Below the pieces are notes generated by a model. That model worked only from the letters and a program-made list of their open reading frames with translations. It was not told the origin of the DNA and made no database searches. 64,000 nucleotides of DNA from an uncultured bacterium (GTDB lineage Bacteria > Omnitrophota > Omnitrophia > Omnitrophales > Aquincolibacteriaceae). This document shows, piece after piece, positions 23,846-58,986 of this stretch. A program made the translations under genes and the position numbers. The stretch covers positions 31,150-95,149 of the forward strand of contig CAYLPP010000008.1 in assembly GCA_964385615.1 (NCBI GenBank), given 5' to 3'. Position 1 is the stretch's first letter. Each line of letters opens with the position of its first letter.

Positions 23846-24439
23846 TTGCCGCAAATGAAAAACGATAAGACTGAAGCAACAGAAAAATTTGTCCACTTTC
23901 AAAACCGGAAAGCCGCGTGCTTTTTAAAGGCGCAGGCTTCTTCCGGTTTTTTTATTTTGCTTAGCGTTTTGTTTTTGTCGAGTCCTTCTGTATCTCATGC
24001 CGCGCTGGTAAGTGAGGATCCTGCTCCTATGCCGGCCGCGGCTTCCCAAGTTTCTCAAACAGCGCATAAGACTGCTTCCGCGCCTCAAAAAGTGAAATCC
24101 TCAAAGGTGCTGATCAAGCGCGGTTTGGCTCCGGCTGAGAAAGGCGCGAAGCGCAAAAAACTTCGCGGGCAAGTCGGCGCTAAAAATATGAATGGCATGG
24201 CGGTTGTTTTTGAAAAGGATGATGTTAAGCGTTCTTCGAAAGAAATGTGGTTCCCGTTTGGCGATGAAACTTATCTAGCTGATTACGAAACTCTCGACGA
24301 TGTCCAGGAAGGTGACGAAGTTTCGGTTACTTATGATGAATCCGCTGAAGGCGTGGTCCAACTTAAGGGGATTTCGCTGGTGCGTAAAGCGCCGGTTGAA
24401 GCTGAACAGTACGATCCCGAAGCTGAGGCTGAAGAGTGA
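23846..24439 (+). CDS. Small secreted/membrane-anchored hypothetical protein, translationally coupled to giant gene 2
   Basis: A hydrophobic segment GFFILLSVLFLSSPSVSHA|A lies after a basic N-region. The C-terminus is acidic. Its stop (TGA) overlaps the GTG start of the next ORF (GTGA). An alternative ATG start lies at 23855. Confidence 0.55.
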   Translation: MPQMKNDKTEATEKFVHFQNRKAACFLKAQASSGFFILLSVLFLSSPSVSHAALVSEDPAPMPAAASQVSQTAHKTASAPQKVKSSKVLIKRGLAPAEKGAKRKKLRGQVGAKNMNGMAVVFEKDDVKRSSKEMWFPFGDETYLADYETLDDVQEGDEVSVTYDESAEGVVQLKGISLVRKAPVEAEQYDPEAEAEE

Positions 24440-27400
24440 ACCATACCCTGACATTCACCCGTAAAGTTGTTCAGGCATCTTTCCTTTTGTGGTCTATTTC
24501 ATTTGTTTTAACCGGTTCCGCGCAGGCAGCGCAGATTAAGAAAGTTTACCGCGGTATCGCGACTTTTGACGCTGCTGAAACTCTGCAGGCCGTTCCTATC
24601 GGCGGTTCCGTGGATCCGACCAAAACGGTCGTTCTGGTGACCAATACCCAGTCTACTAACACGGCTTACGACCGAAGCCTTTTCTTCGTTGCTCAGCTTG
24701 CCGGGAACGATACGATTCAGATTGAGCGCGGCGGCGCGGATGGCACGAACACCGCGAGCGCGGCGTGGCAGGTTATTGAATTTGCCGAAGGCGTCCGTGT
24801 TCAAGCCGGTATTTCAGCTGTGGACAAGGGCTCGCTGAGCAAAGATATAACGGTTCCGCCTCTCAGCCCTGCCATGGATATTACTAAAACGGTACCGATT
24901 ATTATGGTCAGAACGCCCATGGGCACCAACAACGCGGGCCGTTATCAAAGAACACACCAGTTATTTCTGCAGCCGAGCCTGGCTACTGACGGTACCAGCG
25001 TGACTATGACTCTGACACGGTTAGAGGCAAACTCGACCACCGGTGACAAAGCCGTGGCTGTTGCCTGGCAGCTTGTCGAGTTTACCACGGATGCAACAGT
25101 CCGTGCGGGTGATGTCTGTATGCGAGTGCCTGCTTCCGCTGGTTCGCAGACCGTGACTAACGATGGCCTGGACCCGGACGGAGGTACCACGAATTGCGGT
25201 ACGAACTCCAGCGCGTTTAGTCCCGCGCTAAATAGTTCTTCGACGGCCATGCTGTTCTTTTATCCCATGTATGGCTCGGGTTTAAACGGTGAAGATAACC
25301 GTATCTTTATCAGTGGAACGGTTTCAAATTCGACGACCGTGTCGTTTAGTCGAGGCTACGCGGCGACTACAGCTTCATCACATGTTCAGATTAAATATTA
25401 TGTCGTGGACTGGAACGACGGCAGCGCCGCCTTGGGCGCAGGAGCGAGGGGTTCGTTAAGCAGCGCGAGCCATCCGGCTCGAATAGGCGTTTCAGCGGGT
25501 ACGGACGCCGTAGACCCTGCGACGATTCAGATTACCACCGCTTCCGCGCATGGATATCAAGTAGGGGATGCCGTGATTCTCGCGGGTTGTTTGACGAATA
25601 CCGCGGCGAATGGAACTTACAAAGTTTCTAATGTTCCAAGTTCGACCACATTTGAAATCAACACATTTGATGGTGATATTGTGGAAGGTTCCGGCGCGGG
25701 CGCAGAGACGGGCTCCGCGGACTATGTTGCAAAATTTCAGGAAGTAAACATGACGACCGCGCTGACGACTGCCGACATTGACCGCATGATCAACTGGACA
25801 ACGTTCTCCGGCCCGAATAACAGCAATACGTCCACCTCTTCGAGCAATGCTGACGACCTGGCGCATGAAAGCTTTCTTTATACGAAAAGCGGCAGTGTTT
25901 ATTTGGCTACGCGCCGCGCACCGGATGGCGAACTCGCGGGTTCAACGCCGGTTACGATTCAATACCATGTTTATGAATTTCCGGAAATGACGCTGGACTC
26001 TCCCAACGGTGCTGAAAACCTGACAGTCGGACAGGCCGTTAACGTTAACTGGACCGCGGCCGACAGCGTCGCGACGAATGACTGGAAACTTCAAATTTCA
26101 ACGGATGCTCCTCATGCCACCTGGACTGATTTAACAACCGCCAATGGCCTTGGCACCTGCGGCGCCGGCGGTAATTCGGATTGTACAGGAACTGATCTTT
26201 CAACCGGAACTATCCAGTGGACGGTTCCTGACCAGATCAGTTCCACGGCACGCTTGAGGATTGTCGACACGACCAGTGGCGCTTCTCTTGCGCGCAGGAG
26301 TGATACCTCAAACGCCGATTTTAATATCCGCGGCAGTTTGACGGTGACGGCGCCTAATGGCGGTGAAACGTGGAATATTGGCGCGGCCAGTAATGTGACT
26401 TGGACTAAAACGGGAAGCCTGGATTACAGCACCGTGACTTTGAAGCTTTCTCTCGATAGCGGGGGAAGTTTCCCGACCACGATTACCAGTCTTTTGACTC
26501 CCAGCGCGCAGACTTATTCCTGGACACCGACCAATTCTCATGACGGCACGGCAAACCGTGTCCGCGCGGAACTGGCTTCCGATCCTACGTACGTTTACGA
26601 TGAATCAGACGCGGACTTTACGGTTCAGGGCAGTATCACTGTTGTCGCGCCCAACGGCGGTGAGAGCTGGGCCACACAGTCCGATGAAGACATTACCTGG
26701 ACCCGCACCGGTGCTTTTGCCAACGTTAAGATTGAATACTCAACCAACAGCGGCGGTTCGTTTCCTACCTTGATCGTTGCGTCTACGCCTGCTGACCCGG
26801 CTCCCGTTGATAACGCGGGTGTCTACACCTGGACGAATATTCCTACGGGAACGATCAGCACTTTCGGGCGTGTCAAAGTAAGCAGCACTTCAAACCTCAA
26901 CGTGGCTGATGAGTCAGACGCTGATTTCAGCATTGTGCCCTCGATCAAGGTGACTTCTCCCGACAACGGAACGGAAGTTTGGCGCGTGGGTGAAGCCAAT
27001 AACATTACCTGGGATTTGAACGGCGCGCTGGCAAACGTGAAAATTGAATATTCCAAGGATAATTTTGTCGGGGATATCAACTTGATTGTCGCTTCCACGA
27101 ATGCGGACCCGGCACCGGTCGATGGTTCCGGATACTATCAATGGACGATTCCTGACGATATTACTGCGACAGCCAAGGTTCGGGTCAGTAACGCGCTGGA
27201 CGCCAACAAGTATGATATTTCTGATAACAACTTCAAAATTCGCGGCAATATCACGGTAGTCTCGCCCAATGGCGGGGAAGTTTGGCCGGTCGCAAGCTCG
27301 CAGAACATTACCTGGGCCAAAGACGGTACCCTCGGTAACGTTGATATTCTCTATTCTATCAATGGCGGCTCCAGCTATCCAAACACTCTGGCTACAAACC

Positions 27401-30400
27401 AGGCGGGAACCTCGTGGAACTGGGACCCAATTCCTGATGCCATCAACAGCAACCTTAAAGTGAAAGTTCGTTCAACCACTTACAACACCGATACGGAAGA
27501 CGTTTCGGATGCGACGTTTGCCATCAAGGGTTCTTTCACGATTACGTCTCCTAACGGAAGTGAGCAGTGGGGAGCGGCTACCAGTAACGCTGTCACTTGG
27601 ACCTATACCGGTACCATGAGCACCGCAAAAATCGAATATGATGACAATAGCGGATTGAACGGTTATGCCAGCTTGGTTGTGGCTTCCGTTGCGGTTTCAG
27701 ATCAGACGTATTCATGGACCCTTCCATCCACGGTCGGCACTCATTATCGTGTCAGGATTTCCAGCAATGACGATGCGACAGTCTATGACACTTCCAACTC
27801 GGATTTCAGTATCCGTGGTAGCGTTACCTTGACGGCGCCCAACGGGGGGCAGACCTGGGTTGTGGGTACGAACCAGAACATCACTTGGACGTATGTCGGA
27901 ACCATTGCCAACGTCAAACTGGAATATTCCACGGATGGCGGCAGTAACTATTTGGCCGGCGGTTTGATTACTAATTCTGCTCCGGTCAGCCAGGCATATA
28001 CCTGGACCGTCGCAGATGCCATCGGCACTCAGCTGCGTGTCCGTGTTTCAGACGCGAATGATTCCACAGTCAATGACCAGTCTGATGCCAACTTTACGAT
28101 TAAAGGTTCTTTGACGATTACCGCGCCCAACGGCGGTGAAGCCTGGGTCGTGGGTGCTTCGAACAACATTACCTGGACCAAGACCGGTACCATTGCCAGC
28201 GTGAAACTGGATTATTCCACCAACGGTTTCTCGGATGAGCTTCAGAATTTTGCCATTATCGGTTCAACGCCCGGCGGTCTTCTTTCTTATGCCTGGACCA
28301 TTCCGGACGCGATTGGAACGACCTTGAAAGTCCGGATCGCTGATCTTTCTGACTTGACGGTTAAAGATGAATCGGATTTCAATTTCGGCATCAAAGGTTC
28401 TGTGACGATTACGGCTCCGAACGGCGGCGAGTCCTGGTCAGTGGGTTCTTCTCACAATATTACCTGGAGCAAGACCGGAACTTTGACCGGCAATATGAAA
28501 CTGGAATATTCCACGGATAATGGCGGAAGCTGGCTGGTTGGAAATTTGATCACTAACAGTGTGTTGGCTAGCGCGGGAACCTACGCTTGGACTCTTCCGG
28601 ATTCTCCCGGCGTTCAGACGCTGGTGCGCGCGACTCAAGTTGATGATACGTCGGTGACGGATACTTCAGACGGTGCTTTCAGTATTAAAGGTCAGCTGAT
28701 TTTGACGGCGCCTAACGGCGGTGAAACCTGGGTTGTGGGTGAAGGACGCGACGTGGAATGGACCCGTATCGGCTCTATTGCCAACGTTCGTTTGGACTAT
28801 TCTATTAACAGCGGCAGCACCTATCCGAACCAAATCACAGCTTCCACGCCGGCTTCCAACGAAAGCTATACCTGGACTATTCCGGATGCTATCGGCACCG
28901 GGTTAAAAGTGAAAGTGACCGATGCCAATGACTCTTCAGTCAATGATGTTTCAGACGCTGTTTTTGAAATCAAAGGTTCTTTAACGGTTACCGCGCCTAA
29001 CGGCGGTGAAACTTGGGTTGTCGGAAACAGCCAGAACGTGACCTGGACCAAGACCGGTACGATTGCCAACGTGATGCTGGAATACGCTACGAACGCTTTC
29101 TTAGATGAAAGTACGACGGCCACGATCGTTGCTTCGACTCCGGGCGCGAATTTGAGCTATGCCTGGACCATTCCGGATGCGATTGGGAATAACCTGAAAG
29201 TCCGTGTTACCAACCTCGCGGATACTACGGTGAAGGATGTGTCAGATGCGGCGTTCGCGGTTAAGGGCTCTCTGACCGTAGGTTCTCCGAACGGCAGTGA
29301 AGCCTGGATCGTGGGTGAAAGCCGTAATATCGTTTGGAGCATGACGGGCTCTCTGCAGAACGTGAAACTGGAATATTCCACTAACGGGTTCTCGGATGAA
29401 CTGCAAACAACATTGATCGTGGCTTCGACCGCGGCTGAAACCAATCCTCCCGCAGGCACGGGTTCCGGACAGTATGCGTGGACCGTGGCGGACGCCATCG
29501 GTACTTCTTTGAAAGTCCGCGTGACTGATGTGGACAATTCCACGGTCACTGACGTTTCCAACGCAGTGTTTACGATTAAAGGTTCCGTGACGGTGACGGC
29601 TCCCAACGGCGGTGAAATTTGGGCCGTGCTGGAAGATCATGACATTACCTGGACCCGCACGGGTTCTTTCAATAACGTTAAAATTGAATATTCCACGGAC
29701 AGCGGTTCCAATTTTTCGAGCGTCACGGCTTCAACCCCGGCTGACCCCGCTCCGGTGGATAACGCCGGCAAATTTACCTGGACGATCCCGGACAATATCA
29801 CGATTCAGGGCCGTGTGCGTGTTTCCGATTTTGATGACGCGACGGTCGTGGATACTTCGGACGCCAACTTCAAGATTCGCGGCGGTCTGGCTGTTTCGAC
29901 GCCCAACGGCGGTGAAAAATGGACGGTGGGTGACAGCCAGAATATCAGCTGGAATAAATTTGGAACGATTACTTCAACCGTCAAACTGGATTACACCAAG
30001 AATGGCGGAAGTAATTACACTTCAATCGCGACAGGCTTGAACGTTACCACTGCCAGCCCGTATGCCTGGACGGTGCCGGCGGATACTTCCCAGACGGTCA
30101 AGATTCGTGTCATGAGCGAAGCGGATACCGACACATTCGACTTGTCAGATGCCAATTTTAAGATTATGCCGAAGTTCGCCGTGACTTCACCCAACGGCGG
30201 TGAAGTCTGGTCCGTCGCGTCTTCTCAGACCCTCGGCTGGACCACTCAGGGTTCAGCGACCAACGTGAGACTGTCTTATTCTGTTGATGGCGGTAATAAT
30301 TACGCTACTGAGATTACGTCTTCGACTTCAAACACGGGTTCCTTTTCATGGACGGTTCCGGATGCGATTGGTACTGCCGTGCGCATCCGCGTGGAAAATG

Positions 30401-33400
30401 CGAGTGATTCCGAGGCTTTCGATGATTCGGATGCCAACTTCAAGATTCGCGGTGTGGTGCAGGTCACGTCTCCTAACGGCGGTGAATCCTGGAATATTGC
30501 CAGCGCGCACGCCGTAACCTGGAACATCACGGGTTCAATTGCGAATGTTAAGCTGGAATATTCCACCAACGGCTTCGCGGATGAAGGTTCGACCGCGACG
30601 ATTATCGCTTCGACTCCGGCCGATCCCGCTCCTGTTGACGGTACCGGCACTTATTCCTGGACGATTCCGGATACGCCTTCCAGCAGTGTGAAGGTCCGCG
30701 TTTCGGATGCTTCCGATTCCACGGCGTCTGATACTTCCAACGCGACTTTTTACATTCGCGGTTCTCTGGCCCTGAATGCTCCCAATGGTGGTGAGGCTTG
30801 GGTGGTGGGCGCGACCCAGAATATTCAATGGACCCGTACGGGTTCTATCGCCAACGTGAAACTGGAATACTCTAACGACAGCGGGTCGACCTGGCCCGCC
30901 GGTAAAGTCATTGTCGCTTCAACTCCGGCCGACCCCGCGCCGGCCGACAACATTGGTCTTTATTCTTGGACGATTCCCGATGACATCGGCACTTTGCTTC
31001 GCGTGCGTGTTTCTGACGCGGCGGACGCGGCCGTGGAAGATACTTCCAATGCCGATTTCACCATCCGCGGCGCGGTGACCGTAACGTCGCCTAACGGCGG
31101 TGAAACCTGGATCGTCGGCGACAGCCAGAACATTACCTGGACTTCTTCCGGTTCTTTCTTGAACGTCAAAATTGAATATTCAACGAATGCTTTTGCGAAC
31201 GAAACTCAGACCTCAACCATTTCCGGTTCGACGCCCAATGATGGTACGTATTCCTGGGCTATTCCGGACGCGATCGGCACGGCTCTTAAAGTCCGTATTT
31301 CCGACGCGTCGGATGCCAATGTCGTGGACGTCTCCAACGCGGCTTTTGAAATCAAGGGTTCCTTGACGATTACATCTCCTAACGGCAGTGAAGTCTGGAA
31401 AGTGGGAGAAAACCGCAGCATCACCTGGAACCGCACGGGTTCGATTACTACCGCGAAACTGGAATATTCCACGAACGGTGGTTCCAGCTATCCGAACACG
31501 ATCATTGCTTCCACGGACGCGACCACGGGTTCCTATGCATGGACGGTTCCTGACGCGATCAGCTCGGCTCTCAAGGCGCAGATTACTAACACGGATGACA
31601 CCAGCGTGAAAGACGCTTCGGATGCCAACTTCGAAATCAAAGGCACGCTGACTCTGACTTCGCCCAACGGCGGTGAGTCCTGGAAAGTGAACAGCCAGCA
31701 TAACATTACCTGGACCAAGACCGGTACTCAGGCGACCGTAAAACTGGAATATTCCACGGATGGTTTCGCGGATGAACTGCAGAATGTGACGATTGCCACG
31801 GGCGTTGACGCTGTGACCGGTACGCCCTATGTCTGGACGATTCCGGATGCCATCGGCAGCGCGATCAAGGTTCGCGTGACTAACGAAGCGGATTCCGCGG
31901 TCAAGGATGCTTCTGACACCAATTTCAAAATCACAGGTTCTCTGACGCTGGATTCGCCGAATGGCAGTGAGAACTGGGCTGTGGCTTCCGTTCAGACGGT
32001 TGCGTGGACGGTCGTCGGTTCAATCGCCAACGTTAAACTTGAATATTCAACCAACAGCGGTTCGACTTATCCGAACGTGATTACCTCTTCTACCGCGGCT
32101 GGCGCCGGTGCTTATTCCTGGACCCTGCCGGACTCGATTGGTTCGACCCGCCGCGTGAAAGTAACCGACGCGACAGATTCGACCGTCAGCGATACTTCAG
32201 ATGCGGATTTCTCGATCATCGGCGGATTCCAGATGACCAGCCCCAACGGGGGGGAAGTCTGGACCGTGGCTTCCGGTCATTCCGTGACCTGGAATACGGA
32301 CGGTACGGTTGCCAACGTGAAACTGGAATATTCCACCAATGGTTTTTCGGATGAGCTGGCGACTACGCAGATTGTGGCCAGCACCACTAACAGCGGAACT
32401 TATTCCTGGACGATTCCGGACGCGATTTCTTCCACGGTTAAGATCCGCGTCAGTGACGCCTCCAACTCCGTTGCTTACGATCTTTCCAACGGTAACTTCA
32501 AGATCCGCGGCGCCCTGCTGGTCAATGCTCCGAACGGCGGTGAAGCCTGGTTCATCGGGAATTCCCAGAACATTCAGTGGACCCGCACGGGCTCAATTGC
32601 CAATGTGAAGCTGGAATATTCTTCTAACGGTTTCGCGGATGAAAACCAGACGGACGTCATTATTGCTTCCACGCCCGCGGATCCGGCTCCCGCGGATAAT
32701 ATCGGCATTTATTCCTGGACGATTCCGGACACTCCGGGTACGGCGAATAAAGTGCGTGTGACGGACGCTTCCGATGCCACAGTGCTCGATACCTCCAACG
32801 CTAACTTCTCCATTAAAGGTCAGTTGGTCATGACTTCCCCGAATGGCGGAGAAGTCTGGACGGTCGGCGCGGTCAACAATGTGACCTGGAGCAAATTCGG
32901 CGCGATCGTTAACGTTTCTCTTCAATATTCCACGGACAGCGGCGGCACTTGGCCGGGCGCGAACGTGATTACGGCCTCAACCGCGGCGGATCCGGCTCCC
33001 ACCGATAATATCGGTGTTTATTCCTGGACGATTCCCGACGAGATCGGCACTCAGGTTCGGGTGCGTGTGGTGGATACGGCTGACAGCTCAACTTATGACG
33101 ATTCAAACGCGGATTTCAAAATCCGCGGTTCTGTGACGATTACCGCTCCTAACGGCGGTGAAAACTGGATTGTGGGTACGAACCAGAATATCACCTGGAA
33201 CAGCACCGGTTCTTTCTCAAACGTAAAACTGGAATATTCCACCAACGGCTTTTCGGATGAAAATCAGGTTGTCTCGATCACGACTTCAACGCCGAATAAC
33301 GGCAGTTATTCCTGGGCGATTCCGGATGCGATCGGCACGACTTTGAAAGTGCGCGCCAGCGATGTGTCTGACTCGACTGTGGTGGATACCTCCAATGCGA

Positions 33401-36400
33401 ACTTTACAATTAAAGGCGCTCTGGCAATTACATCGCCCAACGGCAGTGAAGTCTGGAAAGTGGGTGAAAGCCGTAATATTACCTGGAACCGCAGCGGTTC
33501 CATCACGAACGTAAAACTGGAATACTCGACTAACGGCGGTTCGACGTTCCCGAACACAATTATTGCCTCAACCGGAGCTGCTTCCGGCACCTACTCCTGG
33601 ACGGTTCCGGACTCTATCGGTACTCAGCTCAGGATCAAGGCTACTGACGTTTCCGACTCAACGGTTTCTGACGCTTCTGACGCTAACTTTGAAATCAAGG
33701 GCACAGTGACTGTGACCTCGCCCAACGGCAGTGAAGTTTGGGTTGTCGGAACTCAGCACAATGTGACCTGGACCAAGACCGGTACTTATGCCGCGGTCAC
33801 GCTGGAATATTCCACCAATGGTTTCACGGATGAACTTCAGAACAATACGATCGCGACCGGCGTTGACGCTGTGACTGGAACGCCGTACGCCTGGACCATT
33901 CCTGACGTGATCGGCACGACACTGAAAGTTCGCGTGACGAATGAAGCGGACGCCGCGGTCAAGGATGCTTCCGACCTTAACTTTAAAGTGACCGGCGCCT
34001 TTGTCCTGACGGCCCCTAACGGCGGTGAAAACTGGGCGGTCGGTCTCAACAAGACCGTGACCTGGACCCGCACGGGTTCAATCGCCAATGCCAAGCTGGA
34101 ATATTCCACCAACAGTGGTTCGACGTTCCCGAACGTGATTTCGGCCTCCACCGGCGCGGCGGCTGAAGCTTATATCTGGACGATTCCGGACGTGATTGGT
34201 TCAACCCGCCGGGTCAAGATTTCCGACGCTTCTGATGCTTCTGTTTACGATACTTCTGATGCCGATTTCGCCATCATGGGTTCCTTCACGGTGACGGCTC
34301 CCAACGGCGGGGAAGTCTGGACGGTCGGCAGTGCGCAGTCCGTGACTTGGACCACCGACGGTACCGTGGCCAACAACAAGCTGGAATATTCGACCAATGG
34401 TTTTTCGGATGAAAATCAGACCAGCGTTATGACGGCCAGCACGCCGAACACGGGCAGTTATTCCTGGACGGTTCCTGACGCGATTTCCACCACCGTCAAG
34501 GTCCGTGTCAGTGACGCAAGCAACGCGAATGCTTACGATATTTCAAACGGCAACTTTAAAGTCCGCGGCGCGCTGTTGTTGACTGCGCCTAACGGCGGTG
34601 AACAGTGGCTGATCGGCAACAGTGAAAATATCGCCTGGACCCGCACGGGTTCGATTGCTAACGTTAAGCTGGAATACGCCACCAACGGTTTCGCGGATGA
34701 AAGCACCACGGCTACGATTATCGCGTCAACTCCGGCGGATCCGGCTCCGGCTGACAATGCCGGCACTTATTCCTGGGCTATTCCTGACACGCCCGGCACC
34801 AGCAACAAAGTGCGCGTGACGGATGCTTCCGATTCAACGGTGCTGGACACCTCAAACGCCGTTTTCTCGATTAAAGGTCAGCTGGTCATGCAGATACCCA
34901 ACGGCAGTGAAGTCTGGGTGGTGGGCGGCGTCAACAACGTTCAGTGGTCGAAGTTCGGCAGTATCTCCAACGTCGCTCTCTATTTCTCGACGGACAGCGG
35001 CGGCACCTGGCCGGGCGGAAACCAGATTGTGGCTTCCACGGCGGCGGACCCGGCTCCTATTGATAACGTCGGTATTTATTCCTGGACCATTCCTGACCAG
35101 ATCGGAACCCAGCTGCGTGTGCGTGTGCAGGACGCGGACGATGCTTCCACTTATGATGATTCCAACAATGATTTCAAGATCCGCGGTTCTATCACCATCA
35201 CGGCCCCCAACGGCGGTGAAAACTGGATTGTCGGCGATACTCAGAACATTACCTGGAATCACACGGGTTCTTTTGCCAACGTGAAGCTGGAATATTCAAC
35301 TAACGGTTTCTCAGATGAAAGCCAGACGGTTTCGATTACGACTTCGACCCCGAATAACGGTTCTTACTCTTGGGCCATTCCTGACGCGATCGGAACCAGC
35401 GTGAAGGTTCGCGCCAGTGACGTTTCGGATTCGACGGTCGTTGATACCTCGAATGTTAACTTTACGATTAAAGGTTCTCTGGATTTGACTTCTCCGGACG
35501 GCAGTGAAGTTTGGAAAGTCGGTGAAAACCGCAACATTACCTGGAACCGCAGCGGCTCGATTGCTAACGTGAAGCTGGAATATTCGACCAACGGCGGTTC
35601 GAGCTATCCGAACACCATTATTGCTTCAACGGACGCCGCGACCGGCACTTACTCCTGGACGGTTCCTGACTCCATCGGCAGTCAGCTTCGCGTTAAGGTT
35701 TCTGACGTGTTGGACGCCACCGTGTCGGATACTTCGGCGGCCAACTTCTCGATTAAAGGCACTGTGACTGTGGGTTCTCCAAACGGCGGGGAAGTCTGGG
35801 CGGTCGGCACTCAGCACAACATTACCTGGACCAAGACCGGTACTTACGCGACAGTGGCTCTGGAATATTCCACCAATGGTTTCAGCGATGAACTTGCCAA
35901 TACGACGATCGCGACCGGTGTGGACTCTGTGACCGGCACACCTTACACCTGGACGGTTCCTGACGTGATTGGTTCCACACTGAAAGTGCGCGTGACCAAT
36001 GAAACGGATCCTTCCGTGAAAGATACTTCCGACCTGAATTTCAAGGTCGTCGGCTCTCTGACCCTGACCGCTCCGAACGGCGGTGAAAATTGGGCCGTGG
36101 GCAGCAGCAAAACGATTACCTGGACGCGTGTCGGTTCAATCGCCAATGCCAAGATTGAATATTCAACCAACAGCGGTACTACTTACCCGAACGTGATTGT
36201 GGCTTCCACGGGCGCGGCGGCTGAAGCTTACATCTGGACAATTCCGGATGCGATTGGCACAACCCGCAAGGTTAAGATTTCTGACGCTTCGGATGCTTCG
36301 GTTAATGATGTTTCCGACGCGGACTTTACGATCATGGGCGCTTTTGCCGTGACGGCTCCGAACGGCGGCGAAGTCTGGACGGTCGGCAGCGCACAGTCTG

Positions 36401-39400
36401 TGACCTGGAATACCACCGGTACCGTATCCAACGTGAAACTGGAATATTCGACCAACGCTTTCTCAGATGAACTGCAGACGGGTGTGATGATTGCCAGCAC
36501 GCCCAATACCGGCACGTACTCCTGGACGGTGGCTGACGCGATTTCAGCCCTGAACAAAGTACGCGTTAGCGATGTGAACAACGCCAATGCTTATGACCTT
36601 TCAGACGCGATCTTCAAGATCCGCGGTGCTATTATCGTGACGGCCCCGAACGGCGGCGAGCAGTGGGAAATCGGTACTTCTCAGAACATTACCTGGACCC
36701 TGACAGGTTCAATCGCCAACGTAAAACTGGAATATTCGACGAACGCTTTCTCTGACGAACTGCAGACCGCTGTGATCGTGGCTTCTACCGCGGCGGATCC
36801 TGCTCCTGTGGATGGAACCGGAACCTATGCCTGGACGATTCCTGACTCTCCGTCGACTACCACGAAAGTGCGCGTTACGGATGCTTCGGATTCCACGGTG
36901 CTGGATACCTCCAACGCCAACTTCGCTCTGAAGGGCCGCCTGGTCATGACGGCGCCTAACGGCGGCGAAATCTGGGTCGTGGCCGGTGTCAACAACATCA
37001 CATGGGACAAGTTCGGCAGTATCTCCAACGTCGCTCTTTATTATTCGACCGACAGCGGCGGTACCTGGCCCGGCGCGAACCAGATTGTGGCTTCCACTAA
37101 CGCCGATCCTGCGCCGATTGACGGTCACGGCGTTTACGCCTGGACCATTCCGGATCTTATCGGCACACAGGTCCGCGTGCGCGTGCAGGACGCGATTGAT
37201 CCTTCGACTTACGATGATTCCGACGCCGACTTCAAGATTCGCGGTTCCATCACGATCACGGCCCCGAACGGCGGTGAAACCTGGATTGTGGGTGATACTC
37301 AGAGCATTACCTGGAACCACACGGGTTCTTTTTCCAACGCGAAACTTGAATATTCTACTAACGGTTTTTCGGATGAACTGCAGACCAGCACGATCACCGG
37401 CGCGACGACTAATAACGGCAGTTACTCCTGGGGTATTCCGGATGCTATCGGTTCCTCAGTCAAGGTCCGCGGCAGTGACGCTGGAGATTCCACGGTCAAT
37501 GATGCTTCCAACGCCAACTTCACCATCAAGGGAGCTCTTCTTCTGACGTCGCCTAACGGCAGTGAAGTTTGGAAAGTGGGCGAAAGCCGTAATATTACCT
37601 GGAACCGCACAGGGTCGATTGCCAACGTCAAGCTTGAATACTCGACCAACGGCGGTTCGGCCTACACCAATACGATTATCGCGTCTACGGGCGCCGGTTC
37701 CGGTACTTACGCGTGGACGGTTCCAGACTCGATCGGCAGTCAGCTGCGCGTGCAGGTTTCCGATGTGACGGATTCCACGGTTAACGACGCTTCTGACGCG
37801 AATTTTCAAATCAAGGGTACGGTCACTCTGACTTCGCCTAACGGCGGTGAAGTTTGGGTTGTAGACAGCCATCACAACATTACGTGGACCAAGACCGGTA
37901 CTTATCCGACGGTGAAGCTTGAGTACTCCACCAACGGCTTTACGGATGAACTGCAGAACACAACGATTGCGACTGGCGTGGACTCTGTCAGTGGGACTCC
38001 TTATGACTGGACCGTTCCCGACATTATTGGTTCCGCGATTAAAGTTCGTGTGACCAATGAAACGGATACGACCGTTAATGATGCTTCCGATCTCAATTTT
38101 AAAGTCACCGGCGCGTTTACTTTAACGGCTCCTAACGGCGGTGAAGAATGGGCGGTCGGTGCTTCTCAGACCATTACCTGGAACCGCACGGGTTCGATTG
38201 CCAACGCCAAGCTGGAACTTTCCACGAATGGCGGTTCGACTTATGGAACCGTGATTCAGGCTTCGACCGGTGCCGCGGCTGAAGCTTATATCTGGACGAT
38301 TCCGGATTCTATCGGCGTGAACCGCCGTGTTCGTATTTCTGACGCTTCAGATGCCAACGTGAAAGACACGTCGGATGCCGATTTCTCGATTCTTGGATCG
38401 TTCACGGTCACCAGCCCGAACGGCGGTGAAGTCTGGACGGTGGCTTCCGCGCAGTCTATCGGCTGGAGCACGGTGGGTACGGTGGCCAACGTGAAGCTCG
38501 AATACTCCACCAACGCTTTTAATGATGAATTACAGACCGTAACGATTGCCGCTACCGCCCCGAACACGGGCAGTTACTCCTGGACGGTGTCCGACGCGAT
38601 TTCAGCTCTGGCCAAGATCCGCGTCAGCGACGTGAATAACGCCAATGCTTACGATATTTCCAACGCCGTTTTCAAGATCCGCGGTGCCTTAACAGTTAAT
38701 GCTCCGAACGGCGGCGAAGCCTGGCTGATCGGTAATTCTCAAAATATTCAGTGGACCCGCACGGGTTCGATTGCCAACGTGAAACTGGAATACTCTTCCA
38801 ATGGTTTTTCCGATGAGTTGCAAACGGATGTGATTGTGGCGTCTACAGCCGCGGACCCGGCTCCTGCCGATAACATTGGTCTTTATTCCTGGACCATTCC
38901 GGACAATCCGGGTACGGCCAATAAGGTCCGCGTCACTGACGCTTCTGACGCGACAGTTCTGGATACCTCTAACGCCAATTTCTCCATCAAAGGTCAGGTG
39001 GTATTGACCATCCCGAACGGCGGGGAAGTTTGGACGGTTGGCGGGGTCAATAATATTACCTGGAATAAATTCGGCGCGATCTCGAACGTTAAATTGCAGT
39101 ATTCAACGGATAGCGGTGATACGTGGCCCGATCCGGCCAACGTGATTACGGTTTCCACGGCGGCTGACCCTGCGCCTACCGATAATATCGGCGTTTTCTC
39201 CTGGACGATTCCCGATGCGATCGGAACTCATCTGCGTGTGCGTGTGCAGGATACGGCTGACAGCTCGACTTACGACGATTCTAACGCGGACTTCAAAGTG
39301 CGCGGCCGTATTACGATCACGGCTCCCAACGGCGGTGAAGCCTGGGTCGTGGGTACCAGCCAGAACATTACCTGGACGCACGCCGGTTCTTTCCCGAACG

Positions 39401-42400
39401 CCAAGCTGGAATATTCCACGAACGCGTTCGCAGATGAAAGTCAAACGTTCTCCATCACGGCGGCCACCCCGAACACGGATTCTTACGCTTGGTCGATTCC
39501 GGATGCTATCGGCAGCGCGGTGCGCGTGCGCGGCAGTGACGCCGCGGACTCCACTGTGAATGATACTTCCGACAACAATTTCACGATCAAAGGTTCTTTG
39601 ACTCTGACTTCTCCTAACGGCAGTGAAATCTGGAAGGTCGGTGAAAGCCGTGCGGTTACGTGGAATAAAGCGGGCAGTATCGCCAACGTTAAACTGCTTT
39701 ATTCAAACAACGGCGGTTCGACCTACGGCTTTACGATTACAAATTCGACGGATGCCAACACGGGTTCCTACACCTGGACCGTGCCTGACACCATCAGCGC
39801 GCAGATCCGAGTTGAGGTTTCTGACGTCACGGATGCTACCGTGAAAGATTCTTCCGATGCCAATTTTGAAATTAAGGGCACGGTTCTTTTGGTTACTCCC
39901 AACGGCGGGGAACAGTGGGCGGTCAATACCGCACACAATATTACCTGGACCAAGACCGGTACTTACTCTTCAGTAAAACTGGAATATTCCACGAATGCTT
40001 TTGCTGACGAACTTCAAACGACGACGATCGCGACCGGCGTGGATTCCGTGACCGGGACGCCTTACAGCTGGACGATTCCGGACACGATTAGCTCCAGTAT
40101 CAAGGTCCGCATTACCAATGAATCCGACTCGGCTGTGACTGACAAGTCGGACAATACATTCAAGATTGTGGGTTCACTGACTTTGACGGCTCCCAACGGC
40201 GGAGAAAGCTGGAATGTCGGAACTTCTCAGACCGTTTCCTGGGACCGCGTGGGTTCGATCGCCAACGTCAAATTGGAATACTCCACTACCGGCGCGGCGC
40301 CTTATCCGAATTTGATCGTTTCTTCCACGTCTGCCGGCGCGGGCGCTTATTCCTGGACGATTCCGGATTCTATCGGCACCACCCGTAAGGTTAAGGTGAC
40401 CGACGTGACGGATTCCACGGTTTATGACGAATCGGACGCTAACTTTGCCATTGTCGCGACTTTCAATATTACTCAGCCTAACGGCGGTGAAGTCTGGACG
40501 GTAGCTTCCACCCAGAACATTACCTGGACAACAACCGGTTCAGTCGCGAACGTGAAGTTGGAATACTCCGTGGATAACGGCACTGACAGTTACGGGAATG
40601 TGATCGCTAATTCGACGCCGAACAATTTGACTTACTCCTGGCAGATTCCCGACACCATCAGCACTCTGATGAAGGTGCGTGTCAGCGATGTGAATAACGC
40701 CAATGGTTTTGATACCTCCAACGCTGTTTTTAAGATTCGCGGCGCGCTGACGGTTGATGCTCCGAACGGCGGTGAAGCGTGGGGTATCGGTACGAACAAG
40801 ACGGTTCAGTGGACCCGCACGGGTTCGATTGCCAACGTCAAACTTGAATATTCCACCAACGGTTTCTCGGATGAACTGCAGACGGCTTTGATTGTTGCTT
40901 CGACGCCTGCTGATCCGGCTCCCTCCGATAATATTGGAACCTATTCCTGGGCCATTCCTGACGTTCCGTCTACGACGGTTAAGGTCCGGGTTACCGACGT
41001 CGCGGATTCAACGGTGCTGGATACCTCAAACGGTGTTTTCAGCATCAAGGGTTCTTTGACGATTACGGCTCCTAACGGCACTGAAACCGGATCGAATTCC
41101 TGGATTGTCGGCACGCCCTACAACATCACCTGGATCAAGGGCGGCGCGATTTCCAACGTTAAACTTCAGTACTCAACGGACAGCGGTGTGACTTGGCCGG
41201 ATCCCAGCAAGGTCATTACGACTTCCACCAGCGCCGGTTTCCTGAGCTATACCTGGACGATTCCGGATGATATTACCAATAAAGGCCGTGTCCGTATTCT
41301 GGATGCTAACGACAATAGCGTTAACGACGTTTCTGATGCTGATTTCTCAATCAAGGGTTCTCTGCACCTGACTTCACCGGATGGTACTGAAATCTGGACG
41401 GTGGGTGATACGCACGCAGTGACCTGGACCAAGACCGGTACGATCGCCAACGTCAAACTCGAATATTCAACCGACGGCGGATCCAATTATACCGGCACGA
41501 TCACGGCTTCAACGGCCGCGGCCGCGGGCACGTTTAACTGGACGATTCCGGATTCCATCAGCACTCAGGTCCGCGTGAAAGTTACGCAGACCAACGATTC
41601 TTTTGTGACGGACGCGTCGGATGCCAATTTGGAAATTCGCGGTTCTCTGACGGTCACTTCGCCTAACGGCGGTGAAGTCTGGCGCGTGGCCGATGCTCAG
41701 CCGATTACCTGGACCAAGACCGGTACGATCCCGACTGTTGAAATCGATTATTCCATCAACGGCGGTTCAAGCTATCCGTTTACCATCGCAACGGGCGTGG
41801 CCGGATCTTCAGGCAGTTATTCCTGGACGATTCCCAACGCGATTACCACCAATGCCCGTGTGCAGGTTGTCAATGAAAGTGACACTCAAGTGTTTGACGG
41901 GTCGGATGCCGATTTTAAAATTGCCGGTTCCATTACAGTGGTTTCGCCTAATGGCGGTGAGAAGTGGGCCATTGGAAGTTCCAAGAATATTACCTGGACG
42001 ATTACGGGTTCTATCTCAAGTGTTAAACTGGAATATTCCACCGACGGCGGCTCCACTTACCCGAACATTATTGCCGCTTCCGTGAATGCTTCAACCGGCA
42101 CGCCTTATGCCTGGACGATTCCGGATGATCCCACGACTCAAGGACGCGTGAAAGTTACGAACACGGCGGACACCACGATCTTTGACGCTTCTAACACCAA
42201 CTTCAAAATTCAAGGTTCCGTGACCGTGACTCAGCCTAACGGCGGTGAAGCCTGGAACGTAGGTGAAACCAAGAGCATTGTTTGGAGCAAGACGGGTTCC
42301 TTTGCCAATGTGAAAATCGATTACTCCGTTGACGGCGGTTCGACGTATCCGAACATTGTTTCGGCCTCCACGCCTTCGGGCAATCTGAGCTATGCCTGGA

Positions 42401-45400
42401 CGATTCCGGATGATATCTCTACGACCGCCCGCGTTAAGGTCACGGATACTAATGACAGTGAAGTGACGGATGAATCAAACGCTGATTTCACGATTCGCGG
42501 TGTCTTTACGGTTACGGCGCCTAACGGCGGTGAAACCTGGCGCGTCGGTCAGGCTCAGAATGTTACCTGGACCGTTACGGGTTCAGTGGGTAACGTGAAA
42601 ATTGAATATTCAACCAATGCTTTCGCGGATGAAAGCCAGACTAATCTGATTGTCGCGACGACTCCGGCGGGGAACTTGACCTATGCCTGGAACATTCCGG
42701 ACGCGATCAGCAATACGGTGAAGGTCCGTCTGACGGACGTGGACGGAATTTCTCTGGGTGACGTTTCTAACGGAAGTTTTTCAATCAAGGGTTTGATCAC
42801 GCTGACGTCGCCTAACGGCGGTGAATCTTACGGCGTCAACAGCGCGCAGAATATTACCTGGAACCGCACGGGTTCTTTCTCCAATGTGAAGCTGGAATAT
42901 TCCACCAACGGATTTTCGGATGAAAATGAAACCAATCTGATTACAGCCTCGACTCCGGCCGATCCCGCGCCGGTCGATAATACCGGAACTTACGCCTGGA
43001 CGGTTCCCGACGCGATTTCAATCACGGTGAAAGTCCGTGTGACTGATGCCAATGACGCGGCCACGACCGATACCTCGAATAACAATTTCACCATTCGCGG
43101 CGTGCTGACCATCACGGCGCCTAACGGCGGTGAAAAGTGGATTGTCGGTACGGCCCAGCTGATTACCTGGGACCGCCAGGGTTCAATTTCTAACGTTAAA
43201 TTGCAATACACGACTAACGGATCGATTTATACGGATATTATTCTTTCAACCCCGAATACCGGCACTTATGCCTGGACGATTCCGAACTCCGTTTCCACCA
43301 CGGTTAAGGTCCGTATTTATGACGTGAACAATAACACCGTGACGGACGATTCTGATGCCAACTTCAAGATTCAGGCCGGTTTCACGCTTTCTTCGCCTAA
43401 CGGCGGTGAAGCCTGGCTGGTCGGCAGTACGCACTCCATTGACTGGACGACTTTTGGTACCGTGCCTTTTGTCCGCCTGGATTATTCCACGGACAGCGGC
43501 GCCAATTACAGTAATCAGATTAGCACCTCGACCGGCAACAGTGGAAGCTACTCCTGGGTAGTTCCGGACAGTGTTTCTGGAACGGTTAAAGTGCGCGTCT
43601 CTGACACGAATGACGTGACGGCCAATGATGAATCTAATGCCGACCTGCGCATTCGCGCTTCGATCAGCGTGGTTACGCCTAATGGTGCTGAACAATGGCG
43701 CGTTGGACGCAGTCAGAATATTACCTGGGGTATGGTTGGTACGATTCCGAACGTGAAAATTCAGTATTCTCGGGATGGTTTCTTCGCGGATATTCAGACC
43801 GTTGCGGCTTCCGCGCCGAACACCGGCACCTATGCCTGGACCATTCCTGACAGCATTTCCAATGTGGTTAAGGTCAAGATTATCGATCCGAATGATATCG
43901 GCGCTTACGACATTTCCGATGCTAACTTCCGTATCACAGGCGATTTCGCGATTACGTCGCCCAACGGCGGTGAAAAGTGGAACGTGGATTCCGATCATGA
44001 CATTACCTGGACTCACGCGGGTACGGTCAGTGATGCCACCCTGGAATATTCCACGAACGCGGGCGGCAGCTGGAACCCGATTACCGGTTTGACGCCTAAT
44101 AACGGCGCTTACACCTGGACGATTCCGGATTCCATTACGGCCCAAGGCCGTGTTCGTATCAGTGATCCGAATGATTCGACGGCCAATGATATTTCTGACG
44201 CTAATTTCAAGATCCGGTCGTTCTTTACGCTGGGTGCTCCTAACGGAACTGAAATCTGGACGGTGGGTGATGTGCACGCGATTACCTGGACTAACACGGG
44301 TACGGTCAGCAACGTCAAGCTGTGGTACTCCACTGATAGCGGCGCGACTTTCCCGAATGTGATTATCGCTTCGACATCGAACACGGGGACCTACAACTGG
44401 ACGGTTCCGGATTCTATTTCAACGACGGTTCGTGTACGCGCGGGCAGCCCGACGGACGTGGATGCTTACGATGATTCCGATGCAGACTTGAAGATCCGCG
44501 GTAAGTTTGTGATTTCCGCGCCTAACGGCAATGAAAAATGGAAAATCGCCCAGGCTTCAAATATTCAGTGGGTTACGACCGGTACGATTGCTGATGTGAA
44601 GCTTTACTATTCGACTAATTCCGGCTCAACTTTCCCGAATGTGATCGCGGCTTCAACGCCTAACGGAGCCAGCGGCGCGACGGCTTCTTACAGCTGGACG
44701 GTTCCGGATGACGCGAGCACCATGGCGCGCATTCGCGTTGAAAATATTGCCGACACGACGGTTTATGACGATTCTGACGCTGACTTCAAGATTCAGGGTA
44801 ACTTTATTCTAACCGCGCCTAACGGCGGAGAGCAGTGGATTGTGGGCGATTTACACAATATTACCTGGAACTGGGGCGGTACGATTGCCAACGTTAAGCT
44901 GAGCTACTCTGTTGACAGCGGTTCGAACTATTCACAAGTGATCGCGGCTTCGGCTCCTAATGGTTCGGGCGGTTCCGGTTCCGCTTCCTACAGCTGGACG
45001 GTTCCGGATGATATTTATTCCACGCTCCGCGTGAAAATCGAAGATCCGAATGACGCTGAAGTTTTTGATGAATCGAACGCGGACTTCAAAATCACCGGTT
45101 CTTTCCTGATCACTTCGCCGGCCGGCGGTGAACGCTGGGTGACGAACGAAGTTCACGCGATTACCTGGAACACCACGGGTACGGTACCGACCGTGAAACT
45201 GACCTATTCGCACGACAATTTCGCGACCTCGAATCTGATCACGGCTTCGACGGCGAACGCTGATACTTATAACTGGACGATTCCTGATCCGGGCATCAAC
45301 AACATTCCGAAATCGACTCGTGTGCGCGTGGAAGATACCCGCGACGCGAATGTGAACTCAACTTCCTCAGCTTTCAACATTGACTACTACTACATCACCT

Positions 45401-48066: not shown

Positions 48067-48097
48067 TATGCACACGGCTTCCTCAATCGCGGCTACT

Positions 48098-48121: not shown

Positions 48122-48136
48122 TGAGGTCCTCTCCCC

Positions 48137-48591: not shown

Positions 48592-48601
48592 GAGGAAATC
48601 T

Positions 48602-49351: not shown

Positions 49352-49366
49352 TAACCGGGAGAAGGT

Positions 49367-51696: not shown

Positions 51697-51718
51697 CCCT
51701 TTTTTTACCCCTCCGCCC

Positions 51719-57340: not shown

Positions 57341-57347
57341 GTGAGCC

Positions 57348-58595: not shown

Positions 58596-58986
58596 TAAAG
58601 GATTTACTCTCGTAGAGGTTTTGACCGCGGTGACTGTGCTGGCGGTCGGGTTGGTGCTTGTGGTCCAGGCGATGGGACGTACTCAGCAGGCCGTGCGTCT
58701 TTCCGAAAACCTCACCGCTGCTTCTCATATTGCTGAAGAGCAAATCACCCGCCTGAAACTGGCCGACCGCGAGCGGGGAAAACCCGGCTATGGTGAAGAC
58801 GGCAAGCAGGAGTACCTGGGCCGGGAGTTTAGCTGGGCCAGCAGCGTTGAGCCTTTTACACGCGCGGACGTGCATGAAGAAGACCAGATCAGTCAGATTT
58901 CCGCCGAGGTTAAATGGCAGGAGGCCGGTGTTGAAAAAAATCTGCGCGCGGTTTCACTGGTTACGCACCGGAAGAGCTTTTCATGA
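58579..58986 (+). CDS. Minor pseudopilin (GspH/GspI-like) with type IV prepilin leader
   Basis: NKG|FTLVEVLTAVTVLAVGLVL has G at -1, F at +1, E at +5 and a hydrophobic N-terminal helix. Confidence 0.75.
   Translation: MSSLNNKGFTLVEVLTAVTVLAVGLVLVVQAMGRTQQAVRLSENLTAASHIAEEQITRLKLADRERGKPGYGEDGKQEYLGREFSWASSVEPFTRADVHEEDQISQISAEVKWQEAGVEKNLRAVSLVTHRKSFS

What the first reader, a model, noticed from the sequence alone, without database searches (positions are those of the whole stretch)
30760..41049. Seven-unit higher-order repeat (period exactly 2,058 nt, five copies) inside giant gene 2
Block boundaries at 30760, 32818, 34876, 36934, 38992 and 41050 are spaced by exactly 2,058 nt (686 aa = 7 units). 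Each unit is most similar to its positional counterpart in the other blocks. Unit 1 of each block carries SKFGAI.NV.LQYSTDSGGTWPGAN. Units 1 and 7 both carry an ASTPADPAPxDNxG insertion loop. Copies are ~80-85% identical at nucleotide level with predominantly synonymous changes. Progressively more degenerate copies of the same 7-unit block lie upstream (about 26.3-30.7 kb) and downstream (41.05-~42 kb). This points to ancient block-wise amplification followed by purifying selection on every unit, and means the protein has a ~7-domain supra-periodicity. It is also a hotspot for recombinational length variation between strains.
Basis: seen in the sequence. Interest (0 to 1): 0.7.

Follow-up and report, generated by a model that had tools for sequence, protein, structure and literature searches.

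The report
Seven-domain super-repeat in giant secreted protein
A 7,545-residue secreted protein of an uncultured Omnitrophota bacterium contains a block of seven different Ig-like domains copied five times in a row; this is a real, old internal duplication of a familiar evolutionary kind, not a new kind of system.

Summary
The core observation holds. Inside ORF 24436-47073 (7,545 aa, 66 consecutive Kre9/KNH-type Ig-like domains), a 2,058-nt block of seven distinct domains is repeated five times (30760-41049). A partial in-phase copy lies on each side, giving about 5.4 periods over 30.2-41.4 kb. 34 of 35 domains are closest to a positional counterpart.

Three details are wrong. Blocks are 66-76% identical at nucleotide level, not 80-85%. 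The SKFG motif is missing from block 1, whose first unit is a type-7/type-1 chimera. No in-phase degenerate copies exist upstream of 30.17 kb.

dS is saturated (1.2-1.7) and dN/dS is 0.12-0.19 in every unit type. The longest shared exact stretch is 34 nt, so this array is old and stable, not a present-day recombination hotspot.

Orthologous giant genes in other Omnitrophota metagenome contigs share the synteny of giant gene, ATP synthase and T2SS. Four (L002, L004, L005, L006) clearly carry the same cassette in the same cyclic order, and L003 holds about one copy. Blocks cluster by genome, and some relatives have near-identical copies. So the cassette is ancestral and its copy number turns over by in-register duplication.

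This is a new member of a known kind: a multi-domain duplication unit, as in nebulin and titin.

The parts
24436..47073 (+). Giant gene 2: a 7,545-aa ORF with a GTG start that overlaps the stop codon of the upstream ORF
   Evidence: ORF list. Codon-position pattern and dN/dS << 1 between internal copies. Homologs in Omnitrophota MAGs.
24436..24528 (+). Predicted Sec signal peptide: positively charged n-region, hydrophobic core, and SAQA|AQ cleavage motif
   Evidence: Read directly from the translation. This is inference; no predictor was run.
24529..25980 (+). Unique N-terminal region of about 485 aa, with no Pfam match
   Evidence: no family. Homologous N-terminal regions in L002 (35% identity), L005 and L006 (24%).
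25981..45384 (+). Uninterrupted array of 66 Kre9/KNH-type Ig-like domains (aa 516-6983) with no linkers
   Evidence: Custom unit HMM. PF10342 at 51-81 bits against a cutoff of 24.6. AF2 model of one unit with pLDDT 95.4, an 8-strand beta-sandwich.
30169..30759 (+). Partial leading copy of the cassette: units 15-16, types 6 and 7
   Evidence: Type classification. Lag-2058 nucleotide identity rises at about 30.3 kb.
30760..32817 (+). Block 1, an edge copy and one of the two most diverged copies (with block 5). Its first unit (30760-31068) is a type-7/type-1 chimera.
32818..34875 (+). Block 2
   Evidence: B2-B3 is the closest pair: 0.80 aa and 0.76 nt identity.
34876..36933 (+). Block 3
   Evidence: AF2 model of the whole block: pLDDT 92.1, pTM 0.60, seven beta-sandwiches joined strand to strand.
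36934..38991 (+). Block 4
   Evidence: Its unit 7 is 92% aa identical to unit 7 of block 1.
38992..41049 (+). Block 5, an edge copy with compensating +1 and -1 codon indels
   Evidence: Orthologs of its units 5 and 6 in L082 are 87% and 80% identical.
41050..43098 (+). Possible degenerate sixth block (units 52-58). Unit 52 is type-1-like without the loop; units 57 and 58 are type-6- and type-7-like.
   Evidence: Motifs. Overall identity margins are only 0.00-0.03. Units 52-58 have 1:1 orthologs in L082 and L083.
45385..47070 (+). Unique C-terminal region of about 560 aa with helical, coiled-coil-like segments
   Evidence: Weak Apolipoprotein-like hit only. 75% identical in L001 and 23-35% in L003, L004, L007 and L024. 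The first ~140 aa are homologous to the C-terminal region of giant gene 1.
2862..19130 (+). Giant gene 1, a 5,422-aa paralog: four Laminin_G_3 lectin-like domains followed by 40 units of the same Ig-like family. It has no higher-order repeat.
204..1769 (+). Secretin of the type II secretion family (context)
   Evidence: PF00263 and PF03958.
55622..62764 (+). Type II secretion genes (E ATPase, F, pseudopilin J, K, PilM/N-like, M), as context
   Evidence: The same gene order is found in L082 and L084.

Best explanation
The feature is a higher-order tandem repeat inside a coding sequence. An ancestral cassette of seven already-differentiated Ig-like domains was duplicated in register several times. 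The mechanism is inferred to be unequal recombination or replication slippage between cassette copies.

In this genome the result is about 5.4 tandem copies, within a 66-domain secreted protein of an Omnitrophota bacterium. The copies are old: synonymous sites are saturated. Every domain has been kept intact by purifying selection, including selection against indels.

The central copies (B2-B4) are the most alike and the edge copies (B1, B5) the most diverged. The first unit of the array is a chimeric junction. Both are the usual footprints of unequal exchange in tandem arrays.

Functionally (inferred, not shown), the array is the stalk of a very long, linker-less rod of Ig-like domains. The protein is exported through Sec and probably released or displayed by the adjacent type II secretion system. 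Each added cassette lengthens the rod by seven domains. The period of seven is most simply a frozen accident of the first duplication, which in-register exchange then perpetuates.
For: SHOWN, in this genome.
- The periodicity and positional similarity.
- Divergence and selection: nt identity 0.66-0.76, dS 1.2-1.7, dN/dS 0.12-0.19, the same range for every unit type.
- No indels among B1-B4.
- The B2-B3-B4 core is supported in 99% of bootstraps, with B1 and B5 basal.
- Unit 17 is chimeric.

SHOWN, across genomes.
- The cassette is ancestral. The same cyclic type order occurs in L002, L004, L005 and L006; L003 holds about one copy in that order.
- The cyclic-order permutation test gives P < 0.0002 for L005 and L006.
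- Window type-specific residues are found in 49% of same-phase foreign units, against 15% of other-phase units.
- Blocks cluster by genome: window 96.5%, L005 100%, L006 100% of bootstraps.
- Amplification is recurrent. L004 has about 2.6 copies that are ~100% identical, and L002 has stretches of 96-100% identity.
- Orthology and synteny of the gene itself.

SHOWN, domain and context.
- Domain nature: PF10342; AF2 unit model with pLDDT 95.4 and block model with pLDDT 92.1 and no linkers; structural matches to Fn3/Ig-like modules and extended Ig arrays such as titin I65-I70.
- Genomic context: secretin plus T2SS E/F/J/K/M.
- Taxon: all named AtpA hits are Omnitrophota.

LITERATURE.
- Repeats commonly expand several domains at a time, and in the middle of arrays; nebulin expands by seven (PMC1553488).
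- Omnitrophota giant genes sit next to T2SS-like loci (bioRxiv 10.1101/2023.11.21.568195).
- Omnitrophota 'tandem-repeat scaffolds' have nucleotide repeats that have dissolved through substitutions (bioRxiv 10.64898/2026.06.07.730766).
Against: - The duplication mechanism (unequal crossing-over or slippage) is inferred from pattern only.
- Clustering of blocks by genome could reflect gene conversion rather than independent amplification. The two cannot be separated here.
- At the unit-7/unit-1 junction the closest pairs are B1-B4 and B2-B5, three blocks apart. The history is therefore not a simple serial duplication.
- Secretion through the T2SS, a rod shape and an adhesive role are untested. 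The N- and C-terminal regions have no recognisable family.
- A distant syntenic ortholog (L024) also has a period of exactly seven units, but only marginal unit-by-unit homology to this cassette. A pure frozen-accident view does not predict this unless the cassette is very old.
Confidence: 0.78

Rival explanations
1. The seven-domain period has a structural or functional meaning. Under this reading the cassette is a module whose seven positions each have a specific role. Examples would be one turn of a superhelical rod, a ruler, or a register that matches a periodic partner such as a pilus or a surface lattice. Nebulin and titin super-repeats match actin and myosin filament periods in this way.
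For: - Cassette order and type-specific residues are conserved across diverged genomes.
- Type-specific columns lie mostly in loops: 25 of 38, against 24 of 65 for other columns (Fisher P = 0.0075).
- There are no indels at all among B1-B4 despite 24-31% nucleotide divergence.
- A distant syntenic ortholog (L024) also has a period of seven units.
- The block model has pTM 0.60, which is fairly high for seven domains.
Against: - Once two cassette copies exist, in-register exchange preserves both the period and the order without any selection on them.
- The paralogous giant gene 1 in the same locus has 40 domains of the same family and no super-repeat.
- Other proteins of the family have periods of 2, 3 and 11 units.
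- Units outside the array, which make up nearly half of the domains, show no lag-7 signal.
- No partner is known.
Confidence: 0.13
2. In this genome the array is an active recombination hotspot. Copy number would differ between strains, and copies would be kept similar by ongoing gene conversion.
For: - Relatives carry nearly identical block copies (L004, L002).
- Short-read contigs of the closest relatives break at or inside the array. L083 starts exactly at unit 52 and L082 starts in block 5.
- Blocks cluster by genome.
Against: - dS between blocks is saturated at 1.2-1.7.
- The longest exact match anywhere in the gene is 34 nt.
- This window was assembled straight through the array.
- Block 5 units are closer to their L082 orthologs (87% and 80%) than to paralogs in the window (83% and 64%).
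- From general knowledge, RecA-dependent exchange falls by orders of magnitude at more than 20% divergence.
Confidence: 0.08
3. The repeat is an assembly or annotation artefact: collapsed or duplicated repeats, or a spurious ORF.
For: Repeats do often cause misassembly. L004 shows identical copies with a frameshift in each copy, which may be a long-read artefact.
Against: - Copies in the window differ at 24-34% of nucleotides, mainly at third codon positions, and all are in frame with no stop codon over 22.6 kb.
- Misassembly cannot produce this pattern.
- Independent contigs from other samples show the same architecture.
Confidence: 0.01

Closest known systems
Nebulin seven-module super-repeat and titin A-band 7- and 11-domain super-repeats; more generally, multi-domain duplication units in repeat proteins (Bjorklund et al. 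2006, PMC1553488)
   Same: - Tandem domains of a single family.
- Self-similarity peaks at a fixed multiple of the unit, here also seven.
- Positional counterparts are more alike than neighbours.
- Duplication is concentrated in the middle of the array, with diverged edges.
   Different: - This case is bacterial, has no introns and is extracellular.
- No periodic binding partner is known, so the period may have no function.
- The domains are Kre9/KNH-type beta-sandwiches, not nebulin modules or titin Ig/Fn3 domains.
Omnitrophota giant proteins next to type II secretion-like loci (West-Roberts et al. 2023, bioRxiv 10.1101/2023.11.21.568195), and the 'tandem-repeat scaffold' class of long Omnitrophota proteins (bioRxiv 10.64898/2026.06.07.730766)
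   Same: - Same phylum.
- Very long gene flanked by gspD/E/F-type genes.
- A single Pfam family dominates by copy number.
- Nucleotide-level tandems have dissolved through substitutions while the domain architecture persists.
   Different: - At 7,545 aa it is much shorter than the >= 30,000-aa examples mentioned in that work.
- Pfam detected none of the HEAT, enzyme, dockerin or TSP3 content that defines the Archaeovorin and Dockerin types.
- Term searches of both preprints found no mention of a higher-order repeat or of Kre9-type domains.
Higher-order repeats of satellite DNA, such as alpha-satellite HORs (recalled from general knowledge)
   Same: - A multi-unit block is the unit of homogenisation.
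- Copies cluster by lineage, which is concerted evolution.
- Array edges are more diverged than the centre.
   Different: - This array is coding and under strong purifying selection.
- It has far fewer copies.
- In this genome homogenisation stopped long ago.
Giant bacterial adhesins built from Ig-like domain arrays, such as SiiE and the LapA/MpIBP-type RTX adhesins (recalled from general knowledge)
   Same: Tens of tandem beta-sandwich domains form an extended stalk between two functional ends.
   Different: - Those adhesins use type I secretion with C-terminal RTX repeats.
- Here there is an N-terminal Sec signal, no RTX hit and a T2SS neighbourhood.

Membership tests
Higher-order (multi-domain) tandem repeat / super-repeat | The strongest self-similarity lies at a fixed integer multiple of the base unit | tested here: met
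   Lag 2,058 nt equals 7 units. Identity is 0.65 against 0.41 or less at lags outside the 2,058-nt series. By unit lag, identity is 0.605 at 7, 0.58 at 14 and 0.556 at 21, against about 0.48 elsewhere.
Higher-order (multi-domain) tandem repeat / super-repeat | Units are more similar to positional counterparts than to neighbours | tested here: met
   34 of 35 units. Identity is 0.72 for same positions against 0.51 for different positions.
Higher-order (multi-domain) tandem repeat / super-repeat | Three or more contiguous head-to-tail copies | tested here: met
   Five full copies plus partial flanking copies, all in frame.
Functional super-repeat of the nebulin/titin kind | The period matches a periodic structure or binding partner | not testable with these tools
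Kre9/KNH-like Ig-like domain (Pfam PF10342) | Score above Pfam's gathering threshold | tested here: met
   51.4, 52.7 and 80.7 bits against a cutoff of 24.6.
Kre9/KNH-like Ig-like domain (Pfam PF10342) | Beta-sandwich fold | tested here: met
   AF2 model with pLDDT 95.4 and eight strands. The best PDB matches are Fn3/Ig-like modules with TM 0.62-0.69 and E about 1e-3, so the match is generic only.
Omnitrophota giant proteins, Archaeovorin type (West-Roberts 2023) | HEAT repeats, enzymatic domains and transmembrane segments | tested here: not met
   Pfam finds only PF10342-type domains plus weak hits. Transmembrane segments were not tested with a predictor.
Omnitrophota giant proteins, Dockerin type (West-Roberts 2023) | [quoted passage not shown] | tested here: not met
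   No such Pfam hits.
Omnitrophota giant proteins (either type) | Adjacent type II secretion-like locus, and Omnitrophota origin | tested here: met
   Secretin and T2SS E/F/J/K/M genes. All named AtpA hits and the best repeat hits are Omnitrophota MAGs.
'Tandem-repeat scaffold' class of long Omnitrophota proteins (2026 preprint) | [quoted passage not shown] | tested here: met
   66 copies of a single family. TRF, whose longest period is 500 nt, reports nothing. Blocks are 66-76% identical at nucleotide level.
RTX / type I-secreted giant adhesins | C-terminal RTX repeats and adjacent T1SS genes | tested here: not met
   No RTX or HemolysinCabind hit. The neighbouring genes are T2SS, not T1SS.

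The most novel reading that the evidence does not exclude
The seven-domain cassette could be a structural module rather than a frozen accident. Seven positions with their own conserved loops would together form one repeat of a regular higher-order structure. That structure might be a superhelical turn of the rod, or a register that matches a pilus or surface lattice. This would be a bacterial extracellular counterpart of the nebulin and titin super-repeats. It would explain why the order is kept across Omnitrophota lineages, and why a very distant syntenic ortholog (L024) also repeats every seven domains.
Probability: 0.12. Interest if true: 0.7.

Novelty: new member of a known kind. Interest (0 to 1): 0.35.

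Why it matters
1. It is a clean prokaryotic example of domain arrays growing several domains at a time. The cross-genome evidence shows an old cassette with lineage-specific copy turnover, that is, concerted evolution inside a protein.
2. It explains why assemblies of related genomes break at this gene. It also warns that domain counts of Omnitrophota giant proteins taken from short-read MAGs are unreliable.
3. It defines a syntenic family: giant Ig-array protein, then ATP synthase, then T2SS. In this family stalk length can be compared between lineages.
4. It does not change what is known about repeat evolution or about Omnitrophota giant genes.

Tried and rejected
- Tandem Repeats Finder on 20-50 kb returned nothing, because its longest period is 500 nt.
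- Exact look-ups of three window proteins (two TTG-start ORFs and AtpA) in the assembly index found nothing. The source contig itself is not on record.
- The GTDB genome scan with the C-terminal region gave a single short contig, L001, which holds no part of the array.
- In-phase degenerate blocks upstream at 26.3-30.1 kb were rejected. Type classification is inconsistent, and the lag-7 identity of the outer units (0.43) is no higher than at other lags. The local nucleotide peaks of 0.47-0.55 at lags 2052-2064 are consistent with the roughly 50% amino-acid identity of any two in-register domains.
- Unit-by-unit homology between the L024 cassette and the window cassette is marginal and was left open. 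The best cyclic shift scores +0.013, with P about 0.02 and no correction for trying seven shifts.
- Fold searches of the unit and of the whole block returned only generic Ig/Fn3-like arrays and gave no functional lead.
- Pfam and NCBIfam found nothing in the N- and C-terminal regions of gene 2.
- Misassembly was considered and rejected on the divergence pattern.

Full report
LAYOUT. The window holds two very long ORFs on the + strand: 2862-19130 (5,422 aa) and 24436-47073 (7,545 aa). The finding lies in the second.

A profile built from the claimed units finds 66 back-to-back domains in this protein (aa 516-6983) and 40 in the first ORF. Pfam assigns them to the Kre9/KNH-like Ig-like domain PF10342, at 51-81 bits against a cutoff of 24.6.

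An AlphaFold2 model of one unit, with the window's 106 units as its alignment, is an eight-strand beta-sandwich with pLDDT 95.4. Its nearest solved structures are generic Fn3/Ig-like modules. A model of a whole block has pLDDT 92.1 and pTM 0.60. It shows seven sandwiches joined strand to strand with no linkers. The large rmsd to compact multi-domain proteins suggests an extended model; the lowest-rmsd matches are elongated Ig arrays such as titin I65-I70.

The protein starts with a Sec-type signal peptide, read from the sequence. It also has unique N-terminal (about 485 aa) and C-terminal (about 560 aa) regions with no family match.

THE OBSERVATION.
- Lag 2,058 nt dominates the self-comparison of the gene. 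It holds continuously, at 0.64-0.81 identity in 294-nt windows, from about 30.3 kb.
- Block 5 shifts register by +3 nt at about 39.14 kb and back by -3 nt at about 40.6 kb. Its length is therefore still 2,058 nt.
- Blocks 1-4 have no indels relative to each other.
- The seven units are 103, 96, 95, 98, 95, 96 and 103 aa, not seven times 98.
- 34 of 35 units have their best match at a multiple of seven units; the chance probability is about 2e-28.
- Same-position identity averages 0.72, against 0.51 for different positions.
- The array really starts with two in-phase units, types 6 and 7, at 30169-30759. It runs on into unit 52 (41050-41355), a type-1 relative. This gives about 5.4 periods.
- Units 57-58 look like types 6 and 7 by motif, so a decayed sixth block is plausible but not demonstrable.
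- Upstream of 30.17 kb there is no lag-7 signal.
- The SKFG motif is absent from block 1. Its first unit is a chimera, type-7-like in residues 1-40 and type-1-like afterwards.
- The ADPAP loop is in all type-1 and type-7 units, and also in units 3, 13, 16 and 58.

AGE AND SELECTION.
- Blocks are 66-76% identical in nucleotides and 66-80% in amino acids.
- Third codon positions differ at 47-54% of sites, against 11-27% at first and second positions.
- dS is 1.2-1.7, which is saturated, and dN/dS is 0.12-0.19. Each of the seven unit types falls at 0.12-0.20.
- The longest exact stretch shared anywhere in the gene is 34 nt.
- The array is therefore old, every unit is under purifying selection, and it is now a poor substrate for homologous recombination.
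- B2, B3 and B4 are the closest to each other, and B1 and B5 are the outliers. The exception is the unit-7/unit-1 junction, where B1 pairs with B4 (92% aa) and B2 with B5 (83%). The history thus involved more than serial duplication.

RELATIVES.
- The best matches to a block are partial proteins from Omnitrophota MAGs, at about 55% identity.
- All named AtpA hits are Omnitrophota.
- The gene order is conserved in L001, L003, L007, L024, L082, L083 and L084: giant gene, small ORF, F-type ATP synthase, then T2SS genes. These are orthologous loci.
- Several orthologs have their own seven-unit repeat:

| Locus | Period (nt) | Copies | Nucleotide identity |
|---|---|---|---|
| L002 | about 2,018 | about 4 | 78%, parts 96-100% |
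| L004 | 2,036 | about 2.6 | essentially identical |
| L005 | 2,061 | at least 4.5 | 67% |
| L006 | 2,010 | about 6 | 72% |
| L024 (distant) | 2,076 | at least 3.5 | 75% |

- The window's type profiles classify the units of L002, L004, L005 and L006 in the same cyclic order. L003 holds about one copy in that order but only a weak periodic signal. The cyclic-order permutation test gives P < 0.0002 for L005 and L006.
- Residues specific to a window type occur in 49% of same-phase foreign units, against 15% of other-phase units.
- Yet in a tree of concatenated units 2-6 the blocks group by genome: window 96.5%, L005 100% and L006 100% of bootstraps.
- The seven-type cassette is therefore older than these lineages, while the copies within each genome arose or were homogenised later. 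That is concerted evolution of a coding higher-order repeat.
- In the closest relatives (AtpA 90-92% identical), units 52-66 have one-to-one orthologs at 66-97% identity. Units 5 and 6 of block 5 have specific orthologs at 87% and 80%. The window's array therefore predates that split.
- Those short-read contigs break at or inside the array.

MECHANISM.
- Shown: the architecture, its age, the selection on it, the ancestral cassette and lineage-specific turnover.
- Inferred: in-register unequal exchange or slippage as the generator. The supporting pattern is central youth, diverged edges and a chimeric boundary unit.
- Inferred: Sec export followed by release or display through the neighbouring type II secretion system. 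This fits reports that Omnitrophota giant genes sit next to such loci (10.1101/2023.11.21.568195).
- Inferred: a stalk role for the linker-less array, in which each cassette adds seven domains of length.
- The paralogous gene 1 carries four ConA-like lectin domains in front of its array, which fits an adhesive role for the family.

WHY SEVEN? The simplest account is a frozen accident that in-register exchange perpetuates. Three results support it:
- Gene 1 has no super-repeat.
- The outer 28 units of gene 2 have none either.
- Other proteins of the family repeat every 2, 3 or 11 units.

Three results argue against pure accident:
- Type-specific columns are concentrated in loops (P = 0.0075).
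- Blocks 1-4 have tolerated no indel.
- The distant ortholog L024 also repeats every seven units.

I give the structural-module reading about 0.12.

COMPARISON WITH WHAT IS KNOWN. Expansion of domain repeats several domains at a time, preferentially in the middle of arrays, is established, with nebulin's seven-module unit as the textbook case (PMC1553488). [quoted passage not shown] Term searches of that preprint and of the 2023 one found no mention of higher-order repeats or Kre9-type domains. This is therefore a new, well-resolved member of a known kind.

VERDICT. Interest is moderate to low.

Noticed in passing
window 2862-19130: Giant gene 1 (5,422 aa) is a paralog. It has four Laminin_G_3 (ConA-like lectin) domains followed by 40 domains of the same Ig-like family. 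Adjacent-unit identity is only about 35% and there is no higher-order repeat. The first ~140 aa of its C-terminal region are homologous to that of gene 2 (32% identity).
   Followed up: partly
window 47098-62764; L082, L083, L084: The synteny runs giant gene, small ORF, F-type ATP synthase, then T2SS E/F/pseudopilins/K/L-M, and is conserved across Omnitrophota relatives. A PAS histidine kinase (51837-53711) sits between ATP synthase gamma and beta in the window, L082 and L083. In L084 it is absent, and three 23S_rRNA_IVP/bAvd-like small genes lie inside the operon instead.
   Followed up: partly
window 30760-31068: The first unit of block 1 is a chimera. Residues 1-40 resemble type 7 (0.67 identity, against 0.54 to type 1). 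Residues 41-103 resemble type 1 (0.68, against 0.59 to type 7). It may be a recombination scar at the 5' edge of the array.
   Followed up: yes
window 26000-48000 vs 2000-20000: GC skew is about zero across giant gene 2 (-0.02 to +0.05). It is +0.06 to +0.10 across giant gene 1 and mostly positive (+0.03 to +0.14) in the flanks, although both genes are on the same strand and encode the same domain family.
   Followed up: no
L004 8100-13440: In a 2.16-Mb long-read contig the orthologous gene has about 2.6 block copies with essentially identical nucleotides. Their period is 2,036 nt, which is not a multiple of 3, and the gene is called as several ORFs. This is either a systematic long-read error repeated in each copy or a very recent amplification that broke the gene.
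   Followed up: partly
L083 1-300; L082 1-660: Short-read contigs of the closest relatives end at the array. L083 begins exactly at the ortholog of unit 52, and L082 begins in block 5 unit 5. This suggests that the array, or a more homogeneous version of it, breaks assemblies.
   Followed up: partly
L024 1-8300: A distant syntenic ortholog (AtpA 65% identical) has a seven-unit repeat of its own, with a period of 2,076 nt. Lag-7 identity is 0.56 against a background of 0.29. Unit-by-unit homology to the window cassette is only marginal.
   Followed up: partly
L020, L036, L025, L022, L035, L039: Other proteins built from this domain family show higher-order repeats with periods of 3, 11 and 2 units. 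Multi-domain duplication units are therefore common in the family.
   Followed up: no
window 31213-31701, 36709-37320, 43246-44277 (- strand): Antisense ORFs of 160-340 aa lie inside giant gene 2. Given the strong coding signal on the + strand they are probably spurious.
   Followed up: no
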